Shown: positions 8,235-53,244, numbered from the stretch's first letter. The stretch: DNA of 64,000 nt from an uncultured Candidatus Saccharibacteria bacterium (GCA_964630525.1 CAZVUY010000005.1:1379-65378), one strand, 5' to 3'. Made by a program: numbers and translations. Notes: generated by a model not told the origin, from the sequence alone.

Positions 8235-9278
8235 ATGTATAATTTAATTATGCAAAATTTGTTAATAATAATATTAGCAGCTGGGCTTCTGGTAGCCATA
8301 TTTGCTCTTTTCAGGAAAAAAGAAACAAAACAAGACGATACCGGGCTTCGGCTTCTTTTGGAGCAGATGAACAATCTTTCGCGTACGGTAGATGAAAAAT
8401 TGGGCGAGTCTTCAAAGGTGGTCCATGAGTCACTGCACCGTCAGTTTGGCGAGTCTCAACGGCTTATCAAAGACATCACCGAAGAATTGGCTCATGTGAA
8501 GGATACCGGTAGGAGAGTTGAAGGATTTGCCGAGCAACTCCAAAGTCTGCAGGATATTTTGAGAAACCCAAAACAGAGAGGTATTTTGGGCGAATATTAT
8601 TTGGAGACTTTGCTTAAAAATGTTTTGCCGACGGGGAGCTACCAAACACAATACCCGTTTAAAGACGGCACTATCGTGGACGCAGTGGTTTTTGTAAAAG
8701 ACAAAATAATTCCCATTGATTCCAAATTTTCACTCGAAAATTACAATCGGCTGGCAGAAGAGAAGGATCCAGTCGAAAAGAGCAGGTTGCAGAAAGTTTT
8801 TGAAGGAGATTTGAAGAATAGAATAGTAGAAACTTCAAAGTATATCCAGCCACAACAAAACACAATGGATTTTGCCTTCATGTTTATTCCACATGAAGCA
8901 ATTTATTATGACCTCATCCTTGGTAGAGTGGGGGTTTCTGAAGAAAACCTTATCCAGCGAGCCGCTGCTAAGTATAAAGTTATAGTTGTTTCTCCGACCA
9001 GTTTTTTGGCTTATCTTCAAACTGTCCTTCAGGGATTAAATGCAATGAAAATAGAAGAAAAAGCAAAAGATATAATTGTAAACGTGATTAAACTCGGAGA
9101 GCATTTAAAAAGATACGATGAATATCATTCTAAGTTGGGGACATCGCTTTCTACCGTTGTTAACCACTATACAAATTCAAGTAAGGAGCTTAACAAAATA
9201 GATAAAGATATAGTAAAGCTAACTGGAGAAAAAATTGACTTCCAATTGCCGTCGATTGATCGTCCGGATATTGATTAA
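8235..9278 (+). CDS. rmuC: DNA recombination protein RmuC
   Basis: N-terminal TM segment, coiled coil and a C-terminal RmuC nuclease-like domain (FMFIPHEAIYYDLI). Confidence 0.7.
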   Translation: MYNLIMQNLLIIILAAGLLVAIFALFRKKETKQDDTGLRLLLEQMNNLSRTVDEKLGESSKVVHESLHRQFGESQRLIKDITEELAHVKDTGRRVEGFAEQLQSLQDILRNPKQRGILGEYYLETLLKNVLPTGSYQTQYPFKDGTIVDAVVFVKDKIIPIDSKFSLENYNRLAEEKDPVEKSRLQKVFEGDLKNRIVETSKYIQPQQNTMDFAFMFIPHEAIYYDLILGRVGVSEENLIQRAAAKYKVIVVSPTSFLAYLQTVLQGLNAMKIEEKAKDIIVNVIKLGEHLKRYDEYHSKLGTSLSTVVNHYTNSSKELNKIDKDIVKLTGEKIDFQLPSIDRPDID

Positions 9279-9285
9279 CAAAAAA

Positions 9286-9804
9286 CCACCTATTTGGAAG
9301 GTGGTTACTATCAAACCCTTTGCTGTTCTCCTCCAGACATCTGGTACCCCACCACCCTAACCTTCGGAAGGTGGTTACTATCCACCCACAAATATCAGGA
9401 AAGAAATCAGACGTACCCCACCACCCTATCTTTTGGAAGGTGGTTACTATCGAAGCAGAAAGAATACGATCGGCTTCGCCTTGGTACCCCACCACCCTAT
9501 CTTTTGGAAGGTGGTTACTATCGAACCGATGGCGAGGTTTTGGGGGTCAATCGGGTACCCCACCACCCTATCTTTTGGAAGGTGGTTACTATCTGGGCAG
9601 ATTTGGAAACGTTATGCTCATAAGTACCCCACCACCCTATCTTTTGGAAGGTGGTTACTATCTGGTACGAAAGCCATTACACGCTAAACCTCGGGTACCC
9701 CACCACCCTATCTTTTGGAAGGTGGTTACTATCTGTCGCCCATGCGACGTGCTTTCTGGTTATTTGTACCCCACCACCCTATCTTTTGGAAGGTGGTTAC
9801 TATC
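9286..9804. CRISPR. CRISPR array 1: 7 full 39-bp repeats plus a 5'-truncated degenerate repeat at the left end; 7 spacers of 30-32 bp
   Basis: Repeat GTACCCCACCACCCTATCTTTTGGAAGGTGGTTACTATC at 9344, 9413, 9484, 9555, 9624, 9695 and 9766. Truncated copy at about 9286-9312. The repeat at 9344 has a loop variant (CTAACCTTCGG). Transcribed strand not resolved. Confidence 0.95.
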
Positions 9805-10030
9805 CAGTTTTTGGTGGTTTTCTCGTCCAAAGGACGAGCATCATCCTAGGGCCGTACTGGAACGTCCCTAAGCGGCCGGGTACATGGCATGGGCCCTCCC
9901 TAAAGAAGGGCTTGCTGTTTATTTGAGAAATATACCTGATTCCGCCATAGAGACGGGATATTTTTCTCAAATCTGGCGGATGGCAAAGTGCTGTCCTACC
10001 TAAACTATATATTCTAAAGGACTGTTTTGT
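9805..10030. ncRNA. conserved array-flanking structured element, copy 1 (candidate tracrRNA/scoutRNA-like RNA or structured leader)
   Basis: About 130 bp is near-identical to 12680-12810. It is followed by a TTTGAGAAA...TTTCTCAAA stem that encloses a different but hairpin-forming insert in each copy. Compensatory changes maintain the GCCCT/AGGGC versus GCTCT/AGAGC stem. Confidence 0.5.
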
Positions 10031-10034
10031 CAAA

Positions 10035-10065
10035 TTGACTATATAGATGTTGTATGTTATACAAT
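10035..10065 (+). promoter_or_regulatory. putative sigma70-like promoter for the RuvC-effector gene
   Basis: TTGACT at 10035-10040, a 17-19 nt spacer, then TATACAAT at about 10058-10065. Followed by GGAGAG at 10070-10075 and a TTG start at 10082. Confidence 0.4.
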
Positions 10066-10081
10066 GTCAGGAGAGTGAACA

Positions 10082-52248: not shown

Positions 52249-53244
52249 GTGAATTTGTGGATTAGTGTCGCATTTATGGATCTAGAAAAATTCAAAAAAA
52301 ATCCAAAGACCCAATATTTGGCTGAAAGTTATGAAAGACTTCTGAAAGAGGAGGCTGATCTTTTGACATTACTAGCAGAAGACCCAAATGCCTCTTTAGA
52401 TTCAATGAAAGAGTTGGCTGAAGCCGACCTCAAAAATATCGATATTCAAAAAAAAGCTTTGACTGAACAGATGGATACTATTTTGAAAGAAGACGAGCAG
52501 AAAAGATTGGCTGAGGAAGAATTTCCAAATGAGATCGTACTAGAAGTCCGAGCGGGGGTGGGTGGGGAAGAGGCGGCCCTCTTTGCCGAAGAATTGGCTG
52601 ATATGTATCGCAAATACGCCGAAATGAGGGGTTGGTCGGTACGGGTGCTAGACGAATCAGAATCGCCTCTAGGCGGCTACAAAGAGGCGAGTTTCGAGAT
52701 CAGGGGTAAAGATGTCTATCGGGATCTCCGATTCGAAACTGGTGTTCACCGGATTCAGCGAGTACCGAAAACCGAGAAATCGGGGAGAGTACACACCTCG
52801 ACCGCTTCAGTCGCCATTTTGCCTATCCGCAAAAAATCCAGCCTCGTTATTTCCCCAGCTGATCTGGAAGTCACTTTCTCTCGTGCTGGCGGAAAGGGTG
52901 GTCAAAACGTCAACAAAGTAGAGACTGCTGTGCGACTGACCCACAAACCGACCGGTATTGTGATCAGTTGTCGAGCCGAAAGAAGTCAGCAGGCCAACCG
53001 AGAAAAAGCGATGGAGATATTGAAAGCCAAACTCGAAGCTCTCAAAGCCGAAGCCGAGGCTCAAAAGTACGCCTCCGAAAGGAAAGAACAGATCGGCAAC
53101 GTCGATCGTTCAGAAAAAATCCGCACCTACAACATCCTCCAAGATAGGATCACCGACCATCGCCTCAACAAGAACTGGCACGGAATCGAAACCATCCTCA
53201 AAGGAGGCCTTGACCCGATCGTTGACTCATTTCGAGCAATCTGA
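52249..53244 (+). CDS. prfA: peptide chain release factor 1
   Basis: PKT (the PxT tripeptide) and GGQ in [14 protein letters not shown]. The true start may be MDLEKF at 52276. Confidence 0.9.

What the first reader, a model, noticed from the sequence alone, without database searches (positions are those of the whole stretch)
9805..10030. Conserved ~200-bp structured element after the last repeat of both arrays, with compensatory base changes
9805-9935 and 12680-12810 are nearly identical, with about five substitutions. Two of those substitutions are exactly compensatory in a predicted stem: GCCCT..AGGGC in copy 1 versus GCTCT..AGAGC in copy 2. Both copies then carry a TTTGAGAAA...TTTCTCAAA stem. 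The internal 33-nt insert differs completely between copies, yet each folds into its own hairpin: CCCTC-GCAA-GAGGG in copy 2 and UUCCG..CGGGA in copy 1. Both copies end in the conserved GGATGGCAAAGTGCT. The element also contains TCCAAAGGA, which can pair with repeat nucleotides UCUUUUGGA (9 bp, one G-U). Sequence conserved only through pairing argues for a functional structured RNA. It could be a tracrRNA/scoutRNA-like cofactor encoded once per array, an omega-RNA-like scaffold remnant, or a structured leader. The array orientation is unresolved. Truncated repeats at the left ends make the right side the likely leader, which would mean minus-strand transcription.
Basis: seen in the sequence. 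Interest (0 to 1): 0.8.

Follow-up and report, generated by a model that had tools for sequence, protein, structure and literature searches.

The report
Scaffold RNA gene heading each CRISPR array
A structured RNA of about 190 bases, encoded at the head of each of the two CRISPR arrays, is most likely the partner (tracrRNA-like scaffold) RNA of a very small TnpB/Cas12f-like CRISPR protein of Saccharibacteria and related bacteria; it is a new example of a known kind of RNA, attached to an uncharacterised miniature CRISPR system.

Summary
Window 9805-9992 and 12681-12868 are two copies of one element, with 20 differences in 188 nt that fall mostly in loops or keep base pairs. The element recurs next to the CRISPR array in 16 related loci (21 full copies, window included) whose effector proteins are only 33-81% identical to the window's. 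It is transcribed from the window's minus strand. All 21 full copies have a TTGAC(A/T)-N16-19 promoter upstream, followed by the element, the array, a truncated last repeat and a terminator. Hairpins P1, P2, P4 and P5 are kept although P2 and P4 are only about 35% identical in sequence. Two conserved single-stranded segments, GUACCC and ACCACC, pair with the conserved 3' end of the repeat (GGUGGU-N-GGGUAC) that abuts the spacer. Both pairings show compensatory changes. This reproduces the guide-pseudoknot-stem core of the TnpB omega-RNA and the Cas12f tracrRNA:crRNA. The best reading is a tracrRNA-like scaffold co-transcribed with its array, for a 421-aa effector with a TnpB/Cas12f fold. That effector lacks the zinc finger and the canonical RuvC-II glutamate, and is paired with a short Cas1. 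No expression data exist. One spacer perfectly matches the host prfA gene.

The parts
10004..10033 (-). Promoter of unit 1: TTGACA-N18-TATAGT, 11 of 12 consensus positions
   Evidence: The same arrangement is upstream of all 21 element copies in related loci.
9805..9997 (-). Scaffold RNA copy 1, about 193 nt; the 5' end is inferred from the -10 box and from where conservation starts
9978..9996 (-). P0, a small 5' hairpin (GGACAGCACUUUGCCAUCC); weakly conserved in the family
9921..9972 (-). P1, a long hairpin. The outer stem UUGAGAAG/UUCUCAA is conserved in sequence. The tip (9942-9956) is variable.
   Evidence: 93% paired; 18 of 18 single hairpins, mean z -6.1.
9893..9911 (-). P2 hairpin GCCCUUCUUUAGGGAGGGC.
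   Evidence: sequence identity 0.35; 18 of 18 hairpins.
9875..9888 (-). P3, a 3-4 bp helix whose loop presents anti-repeat 1, GUACCC (9878-9883)
   Evidence: (helix 3: 100% paired with the repeat 3' end; A-U to G-C in three sequences, C-G to U-A in one).
9845..9872 (-). P4, a variable hairpin
9822..9838 (-). P5 hairpin CUCGUCCUUUGGACGAG, preceded by the conserved AUGAUGC/AUGAAGC motif
   Evidence: (4-11 double changes per pair in five of its seven pairs).
9813..9818 (-). Anti-repeat 2, ACCACC within the conserved GAAAACCACC, followed by an 8-nt linker (9805-9812)
   Evidence: (98% paired with GGUGGU of the repeat; L024 has AUCACC:GGUGAU, a compensated change).
9766..9804 (-). First (leader-proximal) repeat of array 1. 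Its 3' 13 nt, GGUGGUGGGGUAC (9766-9778), pair with both anti-repeats and abut the spacer.
   Evidence: repeat 3' 14 nt 91% identical across the family; 5' 26 nt 46%.
9290..9804 (-). CRISPR array 1: 7 full 39-nt repeats plus a truncated terminal repeat
9284..9306 (-). Terminator of unit 1: the truncated last repeat forms the stem and is followed by a T run
10082..11347 (+). 421-aa effector with a TnpB/Cas12f fold. It has no zinc finger and no canonical RuvC-II Glu.
11419..12150 (+). Short Cas1 (243 aa) lacking about the first 90 positions of the Cas1 models. No cas2 or cas4 is present.
12132..12166 (-). Terminator of unit 2: hairpin CCGCCAAGCACAAGCUUAGGCGG followed by UUUUUGUUUU
12166..12680 (-). 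CRISPR array 2: 7 full repeats plus a truncated terminal repeat
12681..12874 (-). Scaffold RNA copy 2. P0 12854-12873, P1 12797-12848, P2 12769-12787, P3 with GUACCC 12751-12764, P4 12721-12748, P5 12698-12714, ACCACC 12689-12694.
12882..12909 (-). Promoter of unit 2: TTGACA-N16-CATAAT, 11 of 12 consensus positions

Best explanation
The element is the gene for a tracrRNA-like scaffold RNA of a miniature TnpB/Cas12f-like CRISPR effector.

Shown by computation. Each array is its own transcription unit on the window's minus strand: a sigma-70-type promoter, an RNA of about 190 nt, the repeat-spacer array, a truncated last repeat, and an intrinsic terminator. The RNA folds into hairpins P0 to P5. 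Two conserved single-stranded segments are complementary to the conserved last 13 nt of every repeat (GGUGGU-N-GGGUAC), which sit directly 5' of the spacer. The segments are GUACCC, in the loop of the short helix P3, and ACCACC, just 3' of P5.

Inferred by analogy with the solved TnpB omega-RNA and Cas12f sgRNA. GUACCC:GGGUAC would form an H-type pseudoknot stacked on P3. ACCACC:GGUGGU would form the adjacent repeat:anti-repeat stem. Together these build the 'guide-pseudoknot-stem' core that the WED and RuvC domains of such proteins hold, while P1, P2, P4 and P5 supply the rest of the scaffold that a 421-aa protein needs. The spacer then guides the complex to DNA.

Inferred. The scaffold pairs in cis with the first repeat, giving a natural single-guide RNA. 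After processing it pairs in trans with the other repeats.

Not known. Whether the effector cuts DNA or only binds it.
For: Conservation. The element is found beside the array in 16 related loci (21 full copies, window included) with effectors 33-81% identical to the window's. Where it is not found, the leader end of the array is cut off by a contig end, or no array lies in the stretch held.

Strand and transcription unit. TTGAC(A/T)-N16-19 plus a -10 box lies upstream of 21 of 21 copies. A GC-rich hairpin plus a U run follows the truncated last repeat in about 22 of 25 arrays.

Structure. Across 18 sequences, 37 pairs are 92.3% formed, against 38-48% when slid. Fifteen pairs show changes on both sides, and 0 of 500 shuffles reach the observed score. 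P1, P2, P4 and P5 are single hairpins in 18 of 18 sequences, with mean z of -3.3 to -6.1, although P2 and P4 are only about 35% identical. The junctions and anti-repeats are 79-89% identical.

Pairing with the repeat. RNAalifold predicts both long-range helices on its own. GUACCC:GGGUAC is 100% paired, with GUGCCC:GGGCAC in L009, L011 and L023 and GUACCU:AGGUAC in L024. ACCACC:GGUGGU is 98% paired, and L024 has AUCACC:GGUGAU in all its repeats. In L024 the repeat's own internal hairpin is not compensated.

Protein. The AlphaFold model (pLDDT 85.8) is closest to AsCas12f and ISDra2 TnpB. A profile of the family hits ISDra2 TnpB at E 9e-11. PADLOC gives weak Cas12 V-F matches.

Precedent. PMC10097598 describes the guide-PK-stem core shared by the omega-RNA and the Cas12f sgRNA, with repeat:anti-repeat duplexes 1 and 2. 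Preprints 10.1101/2025.01.29.635576 and 10.64898/2026.03.27.714800 describe compact type V tracrRNAs lying just upstream of the array, with stem-loops and anti-repeat segments.
Against: There are no expression or binding data.

There is no terminator between the scaffold and the array, so one scaffold is made per seven repeats. That is an awkward stoichiometry for a trans-acting partner.

The two helices with the repeat are short, at 6 bp each (ACCACC:GGUGGU extends to 8-10 bp in some loci).

The repeat's own 5' half can also pair with GGUGGU (90.7% paired), so the effector might need only crRNA.

The compensatory events in the repeat-pairing helices are few: about 2-3 independent events for GUACCC and one for ACCACC. 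A protein recognising an inverted DNA motif could imitate the GUACCC/GGGUAC co-change.

G-U evidence for the strand is weak by itself: 92.3% paired in sense against 89.1% in antisense.
Confidence: 0.75

Rival explanations
1. It is a transcribed structured leader that acts only in cis. In this reading the 5' domain of the pre-crRNA pairs with the first repeat alone. It might set processing, stabilise the transcript or favour the newest spacer. It would not be a stoichiometric part of every effector complex.
For: The scaffold and the array have one promoter and no terminator between them. There is one scaffold per array of up to seven repeats. The repeat has its own hairpin that can occupy GGUGGU.
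Against: About 190 nt of covarying structure with a sequence-conserved P1 stem and junctions is much more than a processing signal needs. The architecture copies the omega-RNA and Cas12f scaffolds that small TnpB-like proteins require (PMC10097598). In L024 the repeat change is compensated in the scaffold and not inside the repeat.
Confidence: 0.12
2. It is an ordinary CRISPR leader working at the DNA level. It would supply the promoter and the sites that direct Cas1 to the first repeat. The folds and the GTACCC/GGGTAC inverted motif would then be protein-binding DNA features.
For: It lies at the leader end of each array. Degenerate or truncated repeats are at the far end. A short Cas1 is encoded in the locus. 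An inverted DNA motif read by one protein would also co-vary.
Against: The element has 50% GC, against 44% for the window and 32-36% for the promoter stretches. The segment next to the first repeat (the linker) is the least conserved part and varies from a few to about 30 nt, which is the opposite of a leader-anchoring site. Hairpins keep pairing with unrelated sequences, and G-U wobbles are accepted in ACCACC:GGUGGU (L003, L011, L023). That only makes sense for RNA. The element is also kept in P0015-type and L012-type loci where no Cas1 was seen nearby (the Cas1 search there was insensitive).
Confidence: 0.05
3. It is a decaying remnant of a transposon omega-RNA, or of a duplicated leader, with no present function.
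For: The effector descends from TnpB. The two window copies could simply be a recent duplication.
Against: Structure is kept through compensatory change across loci whose proteins are only 33-44% identical to the window's. That requires selection.
Confidence: 0.03
4. It encodes a small protein, the 77-aa and 68-aa minus-strand ORFs at 9800-10033 and 12676-12882.
For: Both window copies and L020 have a stop-free frame on the RNA-sense strand.
Against: L001, the closest relative, already has a stop in that frame. Eleven of the 18 copies have stops in all six frames, and the hairpins differ by lengths that are not multiples of three.
Confidence: 0.01

Closest known systems
Cas12f (Cas14, type V-F) tracrRNA:crRNA / sgRNA
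   Same: A long scaffold RNA of several stem-loops serves a protein of about 400-500 aa. The anti-repeat is in two parts. One pairs with the repeat nucleotides next to the guide to form a pseudoknot (R:AR-1). The other forms the adjacent stem (R:AR-2) (PMC10097598). The gene lies between the cas genes and the array. The effector model's best structural matches are AsCas12f chains.
   Different: There is no sequence or Rfam match. The protein is 12-15% identical to Cas12f and lacks the zinc finger and the canonical RuvC-II Glu. The scaffold runs straight into the first repeat with no terminator, and one copy heads each array. The adaptation module is a short Cas1 alone.
TnpB omega-RNA (reRNA) of IS200/IS605
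   Same: Both share the guide-pseudoknot-stem core. With the first repeat, the scaffold makes one continuous RNA ending in a guide, like a natural single guide. In L002, L003, L012, L013 and L014 it lies directly downstream of the effector gene in the same direction. A profile of the family hits ISDra2 TnpB at E 9e-11.
   Different: It does not overlap the effector's reading frame. It has its own promoter, can sit upstream and divergent (window copy 1) or after cas1 (copy 2), and is followed by an array with Cas1. No transposon ends or TnpA were seen.
tracrRNAs of other compact TnpB-derived CRISPR systems (TranC clades, Cas12n, NanoCas-like)
   Same: [quoted passage not shown] Preprint 10.64898/2026.03.27.714800 reports guide RNAs with 3-5 stem-loops plus a final anti-repeat stem, for effectors as small as about 414 aa.
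   Different: I could not compare sequences because none are held. The element here is about 190 nt with an extra, sequence-conserved P1 and a P2. Whether this family is one of the numbered TranC clades or V-U6 to V-U45 (PMC10691335) is not established.
scoutRNA of Cas12c/Cas12d (types V-C and V-D)
   Same: It is a non-coding partner RNA with short complementarity to the repeat, in systems (some from candidate-phyla bacteria) whose only adaptation gene is Cas1 (PMC10691335 states that V-C and V-D associate only with cas1).
   Different: From my own knowledge, scoutRNA pairs through only 3-5 nt and serves effectors of about 1,200 aa. Here there are two 6-nt segments and a Cas12f/TnpB-type architecture. 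No homology was tested.
CRISPR leader
   Same: It sits between the promoter and the first repeat, at the end where new spacers are expected.
   Different: It is GC-richer than its surroundings and structured. It covaries as an RNA, and it is least conserved right next to the repeat.

Membership tests
tracrRNA (type V, Cas12f-like) | Encoded in the CRISPR-cas locus, outside the repeats | tested here: met
   It is adjacent to the array in the window and in 16 related loci.
tracrRNA (type V, Cas12f-like) | Anti-repeat complementary to the crRNA repeat | tested here: met
   GUACCC:GGGUAC is 100% paired and ACCACC:GGUGGU is 98% paired in 18 sequences, both with compensatory changes.
tracrRNA (type V, Cas12f-like) | Expressed as a stable small RNA | not testable with these tools
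   Only a predicted promoter in 21 of 21 copies. There is no terminator before the array, so a separate RNA would need processing.
tracrRNA (type V, Cas12f-like) | Bound by the effector and required for targeting | not testable with these tools
   Inferred only, from co-occurrence with the effector family and from the effector's fold.
TnpB omega-RNA | Scaffold overlaps or abuts the 3' end of tnpB and the transposon right end | tested here: not met
   It has its own promoter after the effector's terminator, or lies upstream and divergent. No transposon ends were seen.
TnpB omega-RNA | Guide-pseudoknot-stem core, with the guide fused to the scaffold's 3' end | tested here: inconclusive
   The pairing pattern matches (PMC10097598). 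The guide follows a full repeat, and no 3D information exists.
scoutRNA (V-C/V-D) | Very short (3-5 nt) complementarity to the repeat; partner of Cas12c/Cas12d | tested here: not met
   There are two 6-nt segments, and the effector is 421 aa with a TnpB/Cas12f fold.
CRISPR leader (DNA element) | Upstream of the first repeat, carries the promoter, A+T-rich | tested here: inconclusive
   Position and promoter are met. The composition is not A+T-rich (GC 0.50 against 0.44). A role in integration is untested.
Any Rfam family | Match to a curated covariance model | tested here: not met
   No hit at E up to 1 over 9000-13500, apart from weak chance hits at the rplU terminator.
Cas12f / type V-F effector (for the associated protein) | RuvC D-E-D triad with a zinc finger between RuvC-II and RuvC-III | tested here: not met
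   The RuvC-I Asp243 is invariant. The beta4 position of the Glu is Gly/Lys (IVIGK). There is no CxxC pair.
Cas12f / type V-F effector (for the associated protein) | Significant match to family models | tested here: inconclusive
   PADLOC Cas12_x1 6.7e-14 and Cas12f 7.4e-8. NCBIfam guided_TnpB scores 48.9 bits against a cut-off of 100. Foldseek TM is about 0.5.

The most novel reading that the evidence does not exclude
This family may be a living intermediate between a TnpB omega-RNA and a split tracrRNA plus crRNA. The scaffold would never have been separated from its guide. An array, fed by a minimal Cas1, would have grown onto the scaffold's 3' end. Scaffold plus first repeat would then act as a natural single guide, and later repeats would borrow the scaffold in trans. 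In addition, the effector (no zinc finger, RuvC-II Glu lost or moved) may bind DNA without cutting it. That would explain why a perfect spacer against the essential host gene prfA is tolerated, and it would make the system a Cas1-programmable repressor.
Probability: 0.15. Interest if true: 0.85.

Novelty: new member of a known kind. Interest (0 to 1): 0.6.

Why it matters
It supplies the missing RNA component for an uncharacterised CRISPR effector of TnpB size (about 390-430 aa) from Saccharibacteria and other Patescibacteria. It gives exact boundaries, the strand, a secondary structure and the two anti-repeat segments. That is what is needed to reconstitute the system and test it as a miniature DNA-targeting tool.

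It is also a clean natural example of how an omega-RNA-like scaffold, a repeat and an array can be arranged in one transcript. This bears on the 'RNA splitting' account of how type V CRISPR arose from transposons.

The altered RuvC site and the self-targeting spacer raise the question of whether the system cuts or only binds. That question is testable.

Tried and rejected
TCCAAAGGA:UCUUUUGGA was rejected. It is the P5 apex and is changed in L001 and unrelated elsewhere.

Plus-strand RNA. Rejected. Promoters, terminators and array polarity all point to the minus strand. Minus-strand folds are also better, with z of -4.3 and -4.9 against -3.0 and -2.7.

Small ORFs. Rejected.

Rfam. No family matched.

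Covariance model. I used nhmmer profiles, RNAalifold, pair counts and per-segment folding instead.

Protospacers. Three spacers were scanned in viral contigs, and 83 spacers were blasted against GenBank phages. Nothing usable came back, so no PAM could be derived from foreign targets.

Motif in viral contigs. No match.

Cas1 in related loci. A tblastn search was too insensitive to count it. Cas1 presence rests on Pfam marks.

Literature. No paper in the held library describes this family. The supplement of PMC10691335, which lists V-U6 to V-U45, is not held.

Calling the effector nuclease-dead. Not justified. E375 (in strand beta5) and the invariant D378 are kept together with the RuvC-I Asp and are lost together in distant relatives. 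This looks like the relocated-glutamate rearrangement described in PMC10691335.

Full report
Locus. The finding lies in a compact CRISPR-cas locus. In order it contains:
- rmuC (8235-9278, +);
- array 1 (9290-9804);
- element copy 1 (9805 to about 9997);
- a 421-aa TnpB-like gene (10082-11347, +);
- a short cas1 (11419-12150, +);
- array 2 (12166-12680);
- element copy 2 (12681 to about 12874);
- rplU (12952, +).
Both arrays have seven full 39-nt repeats, GTACCCCACCACCCTATCTTTTGGAAGGTGGTTACTATC as read on the + strand, and a truncated repeat at the left end.

Observation. The two copies are a 227-nt repeat at 91% identity, including the last repeat. After the repeat they differ at 20 of 188 positions: 5 in the first 127 nt, 13 in the tip of one hairpin and 2 near the far end. 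The C/T at 9895 and the G/A at 9909 are the two sides of one base pair. Both strands fold better than shuffled sequence, and the minus strand does better (z -4.3 and -4.9 against -3.0 and -2.7). No Rfam family matches.

Related loci. The effector has 32 homologues at 33-81% identity, all unnamed or labelled 'transposase'. Nineteen loci came from genome and metagenome scans, mostly Saccharibacteria and other Patescibacteria MAGs. Five more came from exact-protein look-ups. A profile of the window element finds the same element next to the CRISPR array in L001 (two copies), L002, L003, L005-L007, L009, L011-L014, L016, L019-L021, L023 and L024, with partial copies at contig ends in L010, L017 and L018. 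E-values run from 1e-15 with three query copies to 1e-34 to 1e-55 for full copies with the family profile. Where it is missing, the leader end of the array is cut by the contig end or no array lies in the stretch held. The window holds exactly two copies. L011, L019 and L021 also have two arrays, each with its own copy, the second inverted.

Strand and transcription unit. The two best sigma-70 matches in 9100-13100 are on the minus strand, directly upstream of each copy: 10033 to 10004 and 12909 to 12882, each 11 of 12. All 21 full copies in all loci carry TTGAC(A/T), 16-19 nt and a -10-like hexamer at the same place on the same strand. At the other end, about 22 of 25 arrays with an intact distal end finish with a truncated repeat that keeps only its 5' half, then a GC-rich hairpin and a U run on that strand. 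In the window these are at 9284-9306 and 12132-12166. Each unit is therefore promoter, element, array, terminator, and the RNA is the minus strand of the window. Wobble pairs add only weak support: 92.3% of cells are paired in sense and 89.1% in antisense. The unit's position relative to the effector varies. It is upstream and divergent (window copy 1, L007), after cas1 and convergent (window copy 2, L020), or directly downstream and co-directional (L002, L003, L012-L014).

Structure. I aligned 18 distinct copies from the -10 box to the end of the first repeat (A4). RNAalifold on the earlier 14-sequence alignment predicted the long hairpin P1, hairpins P2 and P5, and two long-range helices to the first repeat. 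On A4, a 37-pair structure (P1, P3, P5 and the two helices to the repeat) is 92.3% paired, against 38-48% when the 3' partners are slid by 1-3 columns. It has 15 pairs with changes on both sides and 56 such cells, and no shuffle out of 500 reaches the observed values. MAFFT misaligns the variable hairpins by a column or so, so I also folded each segment of each sequence alone. P1, P2, P4 and P5 come out as single hairpins in 18 of 18 sequences (medians 20, 9, 8 and 7 bp; mean z -6.1, -4.4, -3.3 and -3.7), with 16-18 different sequences each. Pairwise identity is 0.35 in P2, 0.36 in P4 and 0.47 in P5. It is 0.79-0.89 in the P3/GUACCC region, in AUGAAGC and in GAAAACCACC, and 0.81 in the outer P1 stem. 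It is AUUUGGCU/GGCCAAAU in L020, GGAGACAC/GUGUCUCU in L005, and so on. No reading frame is conserved: 11 of the 18 copies have stops in all six frames, and L001 already has a stop in the window's open frame.

Pairing with the repeat. Across the family the last 14 nt of the repeat (RNA sense GGGUGGUnGGGUAC) are 91% identical, while the first 26 nt are 46% identical. GGGUAC, which directly abuts the spacer, is complementary to GUACCC in the 7-8-nt loop of P3. P3 itself covaries: GCCC/GGGC, GUGU/ACAC, GUGU/GCAC, GUCG/CGAC, GUC/GAC and GCC/GGC. This helix is paired in all 108 cells. L009, L011 and L023 have GUGCCC with GGGCAC, and L024 has GUACCU with AGGUAC. GGUGGU, one nucleotide upstream, is complementary to ACCACC in the conserved GAAAACCACC that follows P5. 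This helix is 98% paired, with wobbles in L003, L011 and L023. L024 has AUCACC with GGUGAU, and all three full repeats of L024 carry the variant. The repeat's own 5' half can also pair with GGUGGU, but less well (90.7%), and it is not compensated in L024. Tolerance of wobbles argues for RNA pairing rather than for a DNA motif read twice by a protein. By sequence order, P3 strand, one nucleotide, GUACCC, P3 strand and then a distant GGGUAC form a classical H-type pseudoknot. That geometry is my inference.

Comparison with known RNAs. In the ISDra2 TnpB structure, the nucleotides just 5' of the guide pair with a distant 5' segment to form a pseudoknot, and the next segment forms stem 4. The authors equate these with repeat:anti-repeat 1 (pseudoknot) and repeat:anti-repeat 2 (stem 5) of the Cas12f sgRNA, and they call guide-PK-stem universal among Cas12 guides (PMC10097598). 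The element reproduces that logic. Preprints on compact systems describe tracrRNAs just upstream of the array, with stem-loops and unpaired segments complementary to the repeat (10.1101/2025.01.29.635576), and 100-200-nt tracrRNAs with 3-5 stem-loops for Cas12f, Cas12n and TranC clades (10.64898/2026.03.27.714800). What is less usual here is that the scaffold shares a promoter with the array and runs into the first repeat after a linker of a few to about 30 nt. Each array also has its own copy.

The protein.
- Family models: Pfam gives a sub-threshold OrfB_IS605 hit and NCBIfam a sub-threshold guided_TnpB hit. PADLOC gives weak Cas12 V-F hits.
- Solved structures: the single sequence has no PDB match. 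The family profile hits ISDra2 TnpB at 9e-11, aligned from the WED domain through RuvC-I and stopping just before RuvC-II.
- Model: the AlphaFold model (pLDDT 85.8) is closest to AsCas12f (E 1.4e-14, TM about 0.5) and to TnpB.
- Active site: in the family alignment the RuvC-I Asp (D243) is invariant. The beta4 strand ends in IVIGK instead of the canonical Glu. There is no CxxC zinc finger. The usual RuvC-III Asp position (DDPES) is variable. However, E375 sits in beta5, is present in 28 of 32 sequences, and is followed by the invariant D378. In more distant relatives, those that keep the RuvC-I Asp keep (E)VPD, and those that lost it lost both. This resembles the relocated-glutamate rearrangements that PMC10691335 considers active. 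I therefore leave cutting versus binding open.
- Family size: about 25 full-length clusters at 50% identity, and 48 hits below 1e-30.
- Partner gene: a short Cas1 lacking about the first 90 model positions, without cas2 or cas4, accompanies the effector in the window, L001, L020-L024 and the P0029 locus.

Mechanism and rivals. The best reading (0.75) is a tracrRNA-like scaffold that builds the effector's guide RNA by pairing with the 3' end of the repeat, in cis with the first repeat and probably in trans with the others. The main weakness is stoichiometry (one scaffold per seven repeats, no separate terminator) together with the complete absence of expression data. The rivals are a purely cis-acting leader RNA (0.12), a DNA-level leader (0.05), a functionless remnant (0.03) and a small protein (0.01). 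The covariation, the composition (GC 0.50 against 0.44 for the window and 0.32-0.36 for the promoter stretches), the poor conservation next to the repeat and the ORF test argue against the last three.

Novelty. The kind of RNA is known, but this family of it is not in Rfam or in the literature I could search. The census in PMC10691335 lists forty uncharacterised type V candidates (V-U6 to V-U45) in a supplement I could not read. The later TranC clades could also include this protein. I therefore file it as a new member of a known kind.

Seen in passing. The spacer at 12263-12292 matches 30 of 30 bases in the host's own prfA at 52587-52616. The crRNA has the sense of the mRNA, so it would pair with the template DNA strand. 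The 5' flank is CTCTTTGC, that is TTTG followed by a C that also matches the last base of the repeat, which is a plausible T-rich PAM. If the site is recognised, the effector cannot be a efficient chromosome cutter. No foreign protospacers were found.

Noticed in passing
window 12263-12292 and 52587-52616: One spacer of array 2 (second-oldest position) matches 30 of 30 bases inside the host's essential prfA gene (release factor 1, ORF 52249-53244 +). The crRNA has mRNA sense, so it would pair with the template DNA strand. The 5' flank CTCTTTGC offers a T-rich PAM-like TTTG. A tolerated perfect self-target suggests binding without cutting, or a missing PAM.
   Followed up: partly
window 10082-11347 (residues 323-328, 375, 378, 386-387): The effector lacks the canonical RuvC-II Glu (beta4 ends IVVGM/IVIGK) and has no zinc finger. 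E375 in beta5 and the invariant D378 co-occur with the RuvC-I Asp across relatives, which suggests a rearranged rather than a dead active site.
   Followed up: partly
window 11075-11140 (effector residues 332-353): The invariant motif HYGVQNTG lies in the only long low-confidence stretch of the model (pLDDT below 50). It may be a nucleic-acid-contacting loop or lid that orders only in the complex.
   Followed up: no
window 11419-12150: Cas1 is only 243 aa and matches Cas1 models from about position 90 onward, so the N-terminal domain is missing. No cas2 or cas4 is present in the locus. The same pairing is seen in L020-L024.
   Followed up: partly
window 9284-9312 and 12132-12191: Each array ends in a repeat truncated to its 5' half. 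In array 1 that stub (ACCACC...GGUGGU plus a T run) itself forms the terminator. In array 2 a separate hairpin follows it. The same design appears in about 22 of 25 related arrays.
   Followed up: yes
window 10004-10064: There are back-to-back promoters. The minus-strand TTGACA (10028-10033) overlaps a plus-strand TTGACT-N17-TATACA, seen by eye at about 10036-10064, ahead of the effector's AGGAG ribosome-binding site and TTG start codon. The region TTGTCAAATTGAC is nearly palindromic and is also present in L001.
   Followed up: no
L020 4755-4786 and 4826-4857: The same 32-nt spacer occurs twice in a row, a repeat-spacer unit duplication. L020 is syntenic with the window (yqeY, rmuC, effector, cas1, array, rplU) but has no array or element between rmuC and the effector. 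Window unit 1 therefore looks like a later duplication of the promoter-scaffold-array module.
   Followed up: no
L019 7216-7540: Only a short C-terminal Cas1-like fragment follows the effector, where other loci have a full cas1. It may be a cas1 pseudogene.
   Followed up: no
L001, L019, L021 (both element copies): Within one genome the two scaffold copies are identical or differ by a single base, promoter included in L019 and L021. The window's two copies differ at 20 positions, with a replaced P1 tip. This suggests gene conversion or recent duplication in some lineages.
   Followed up: no
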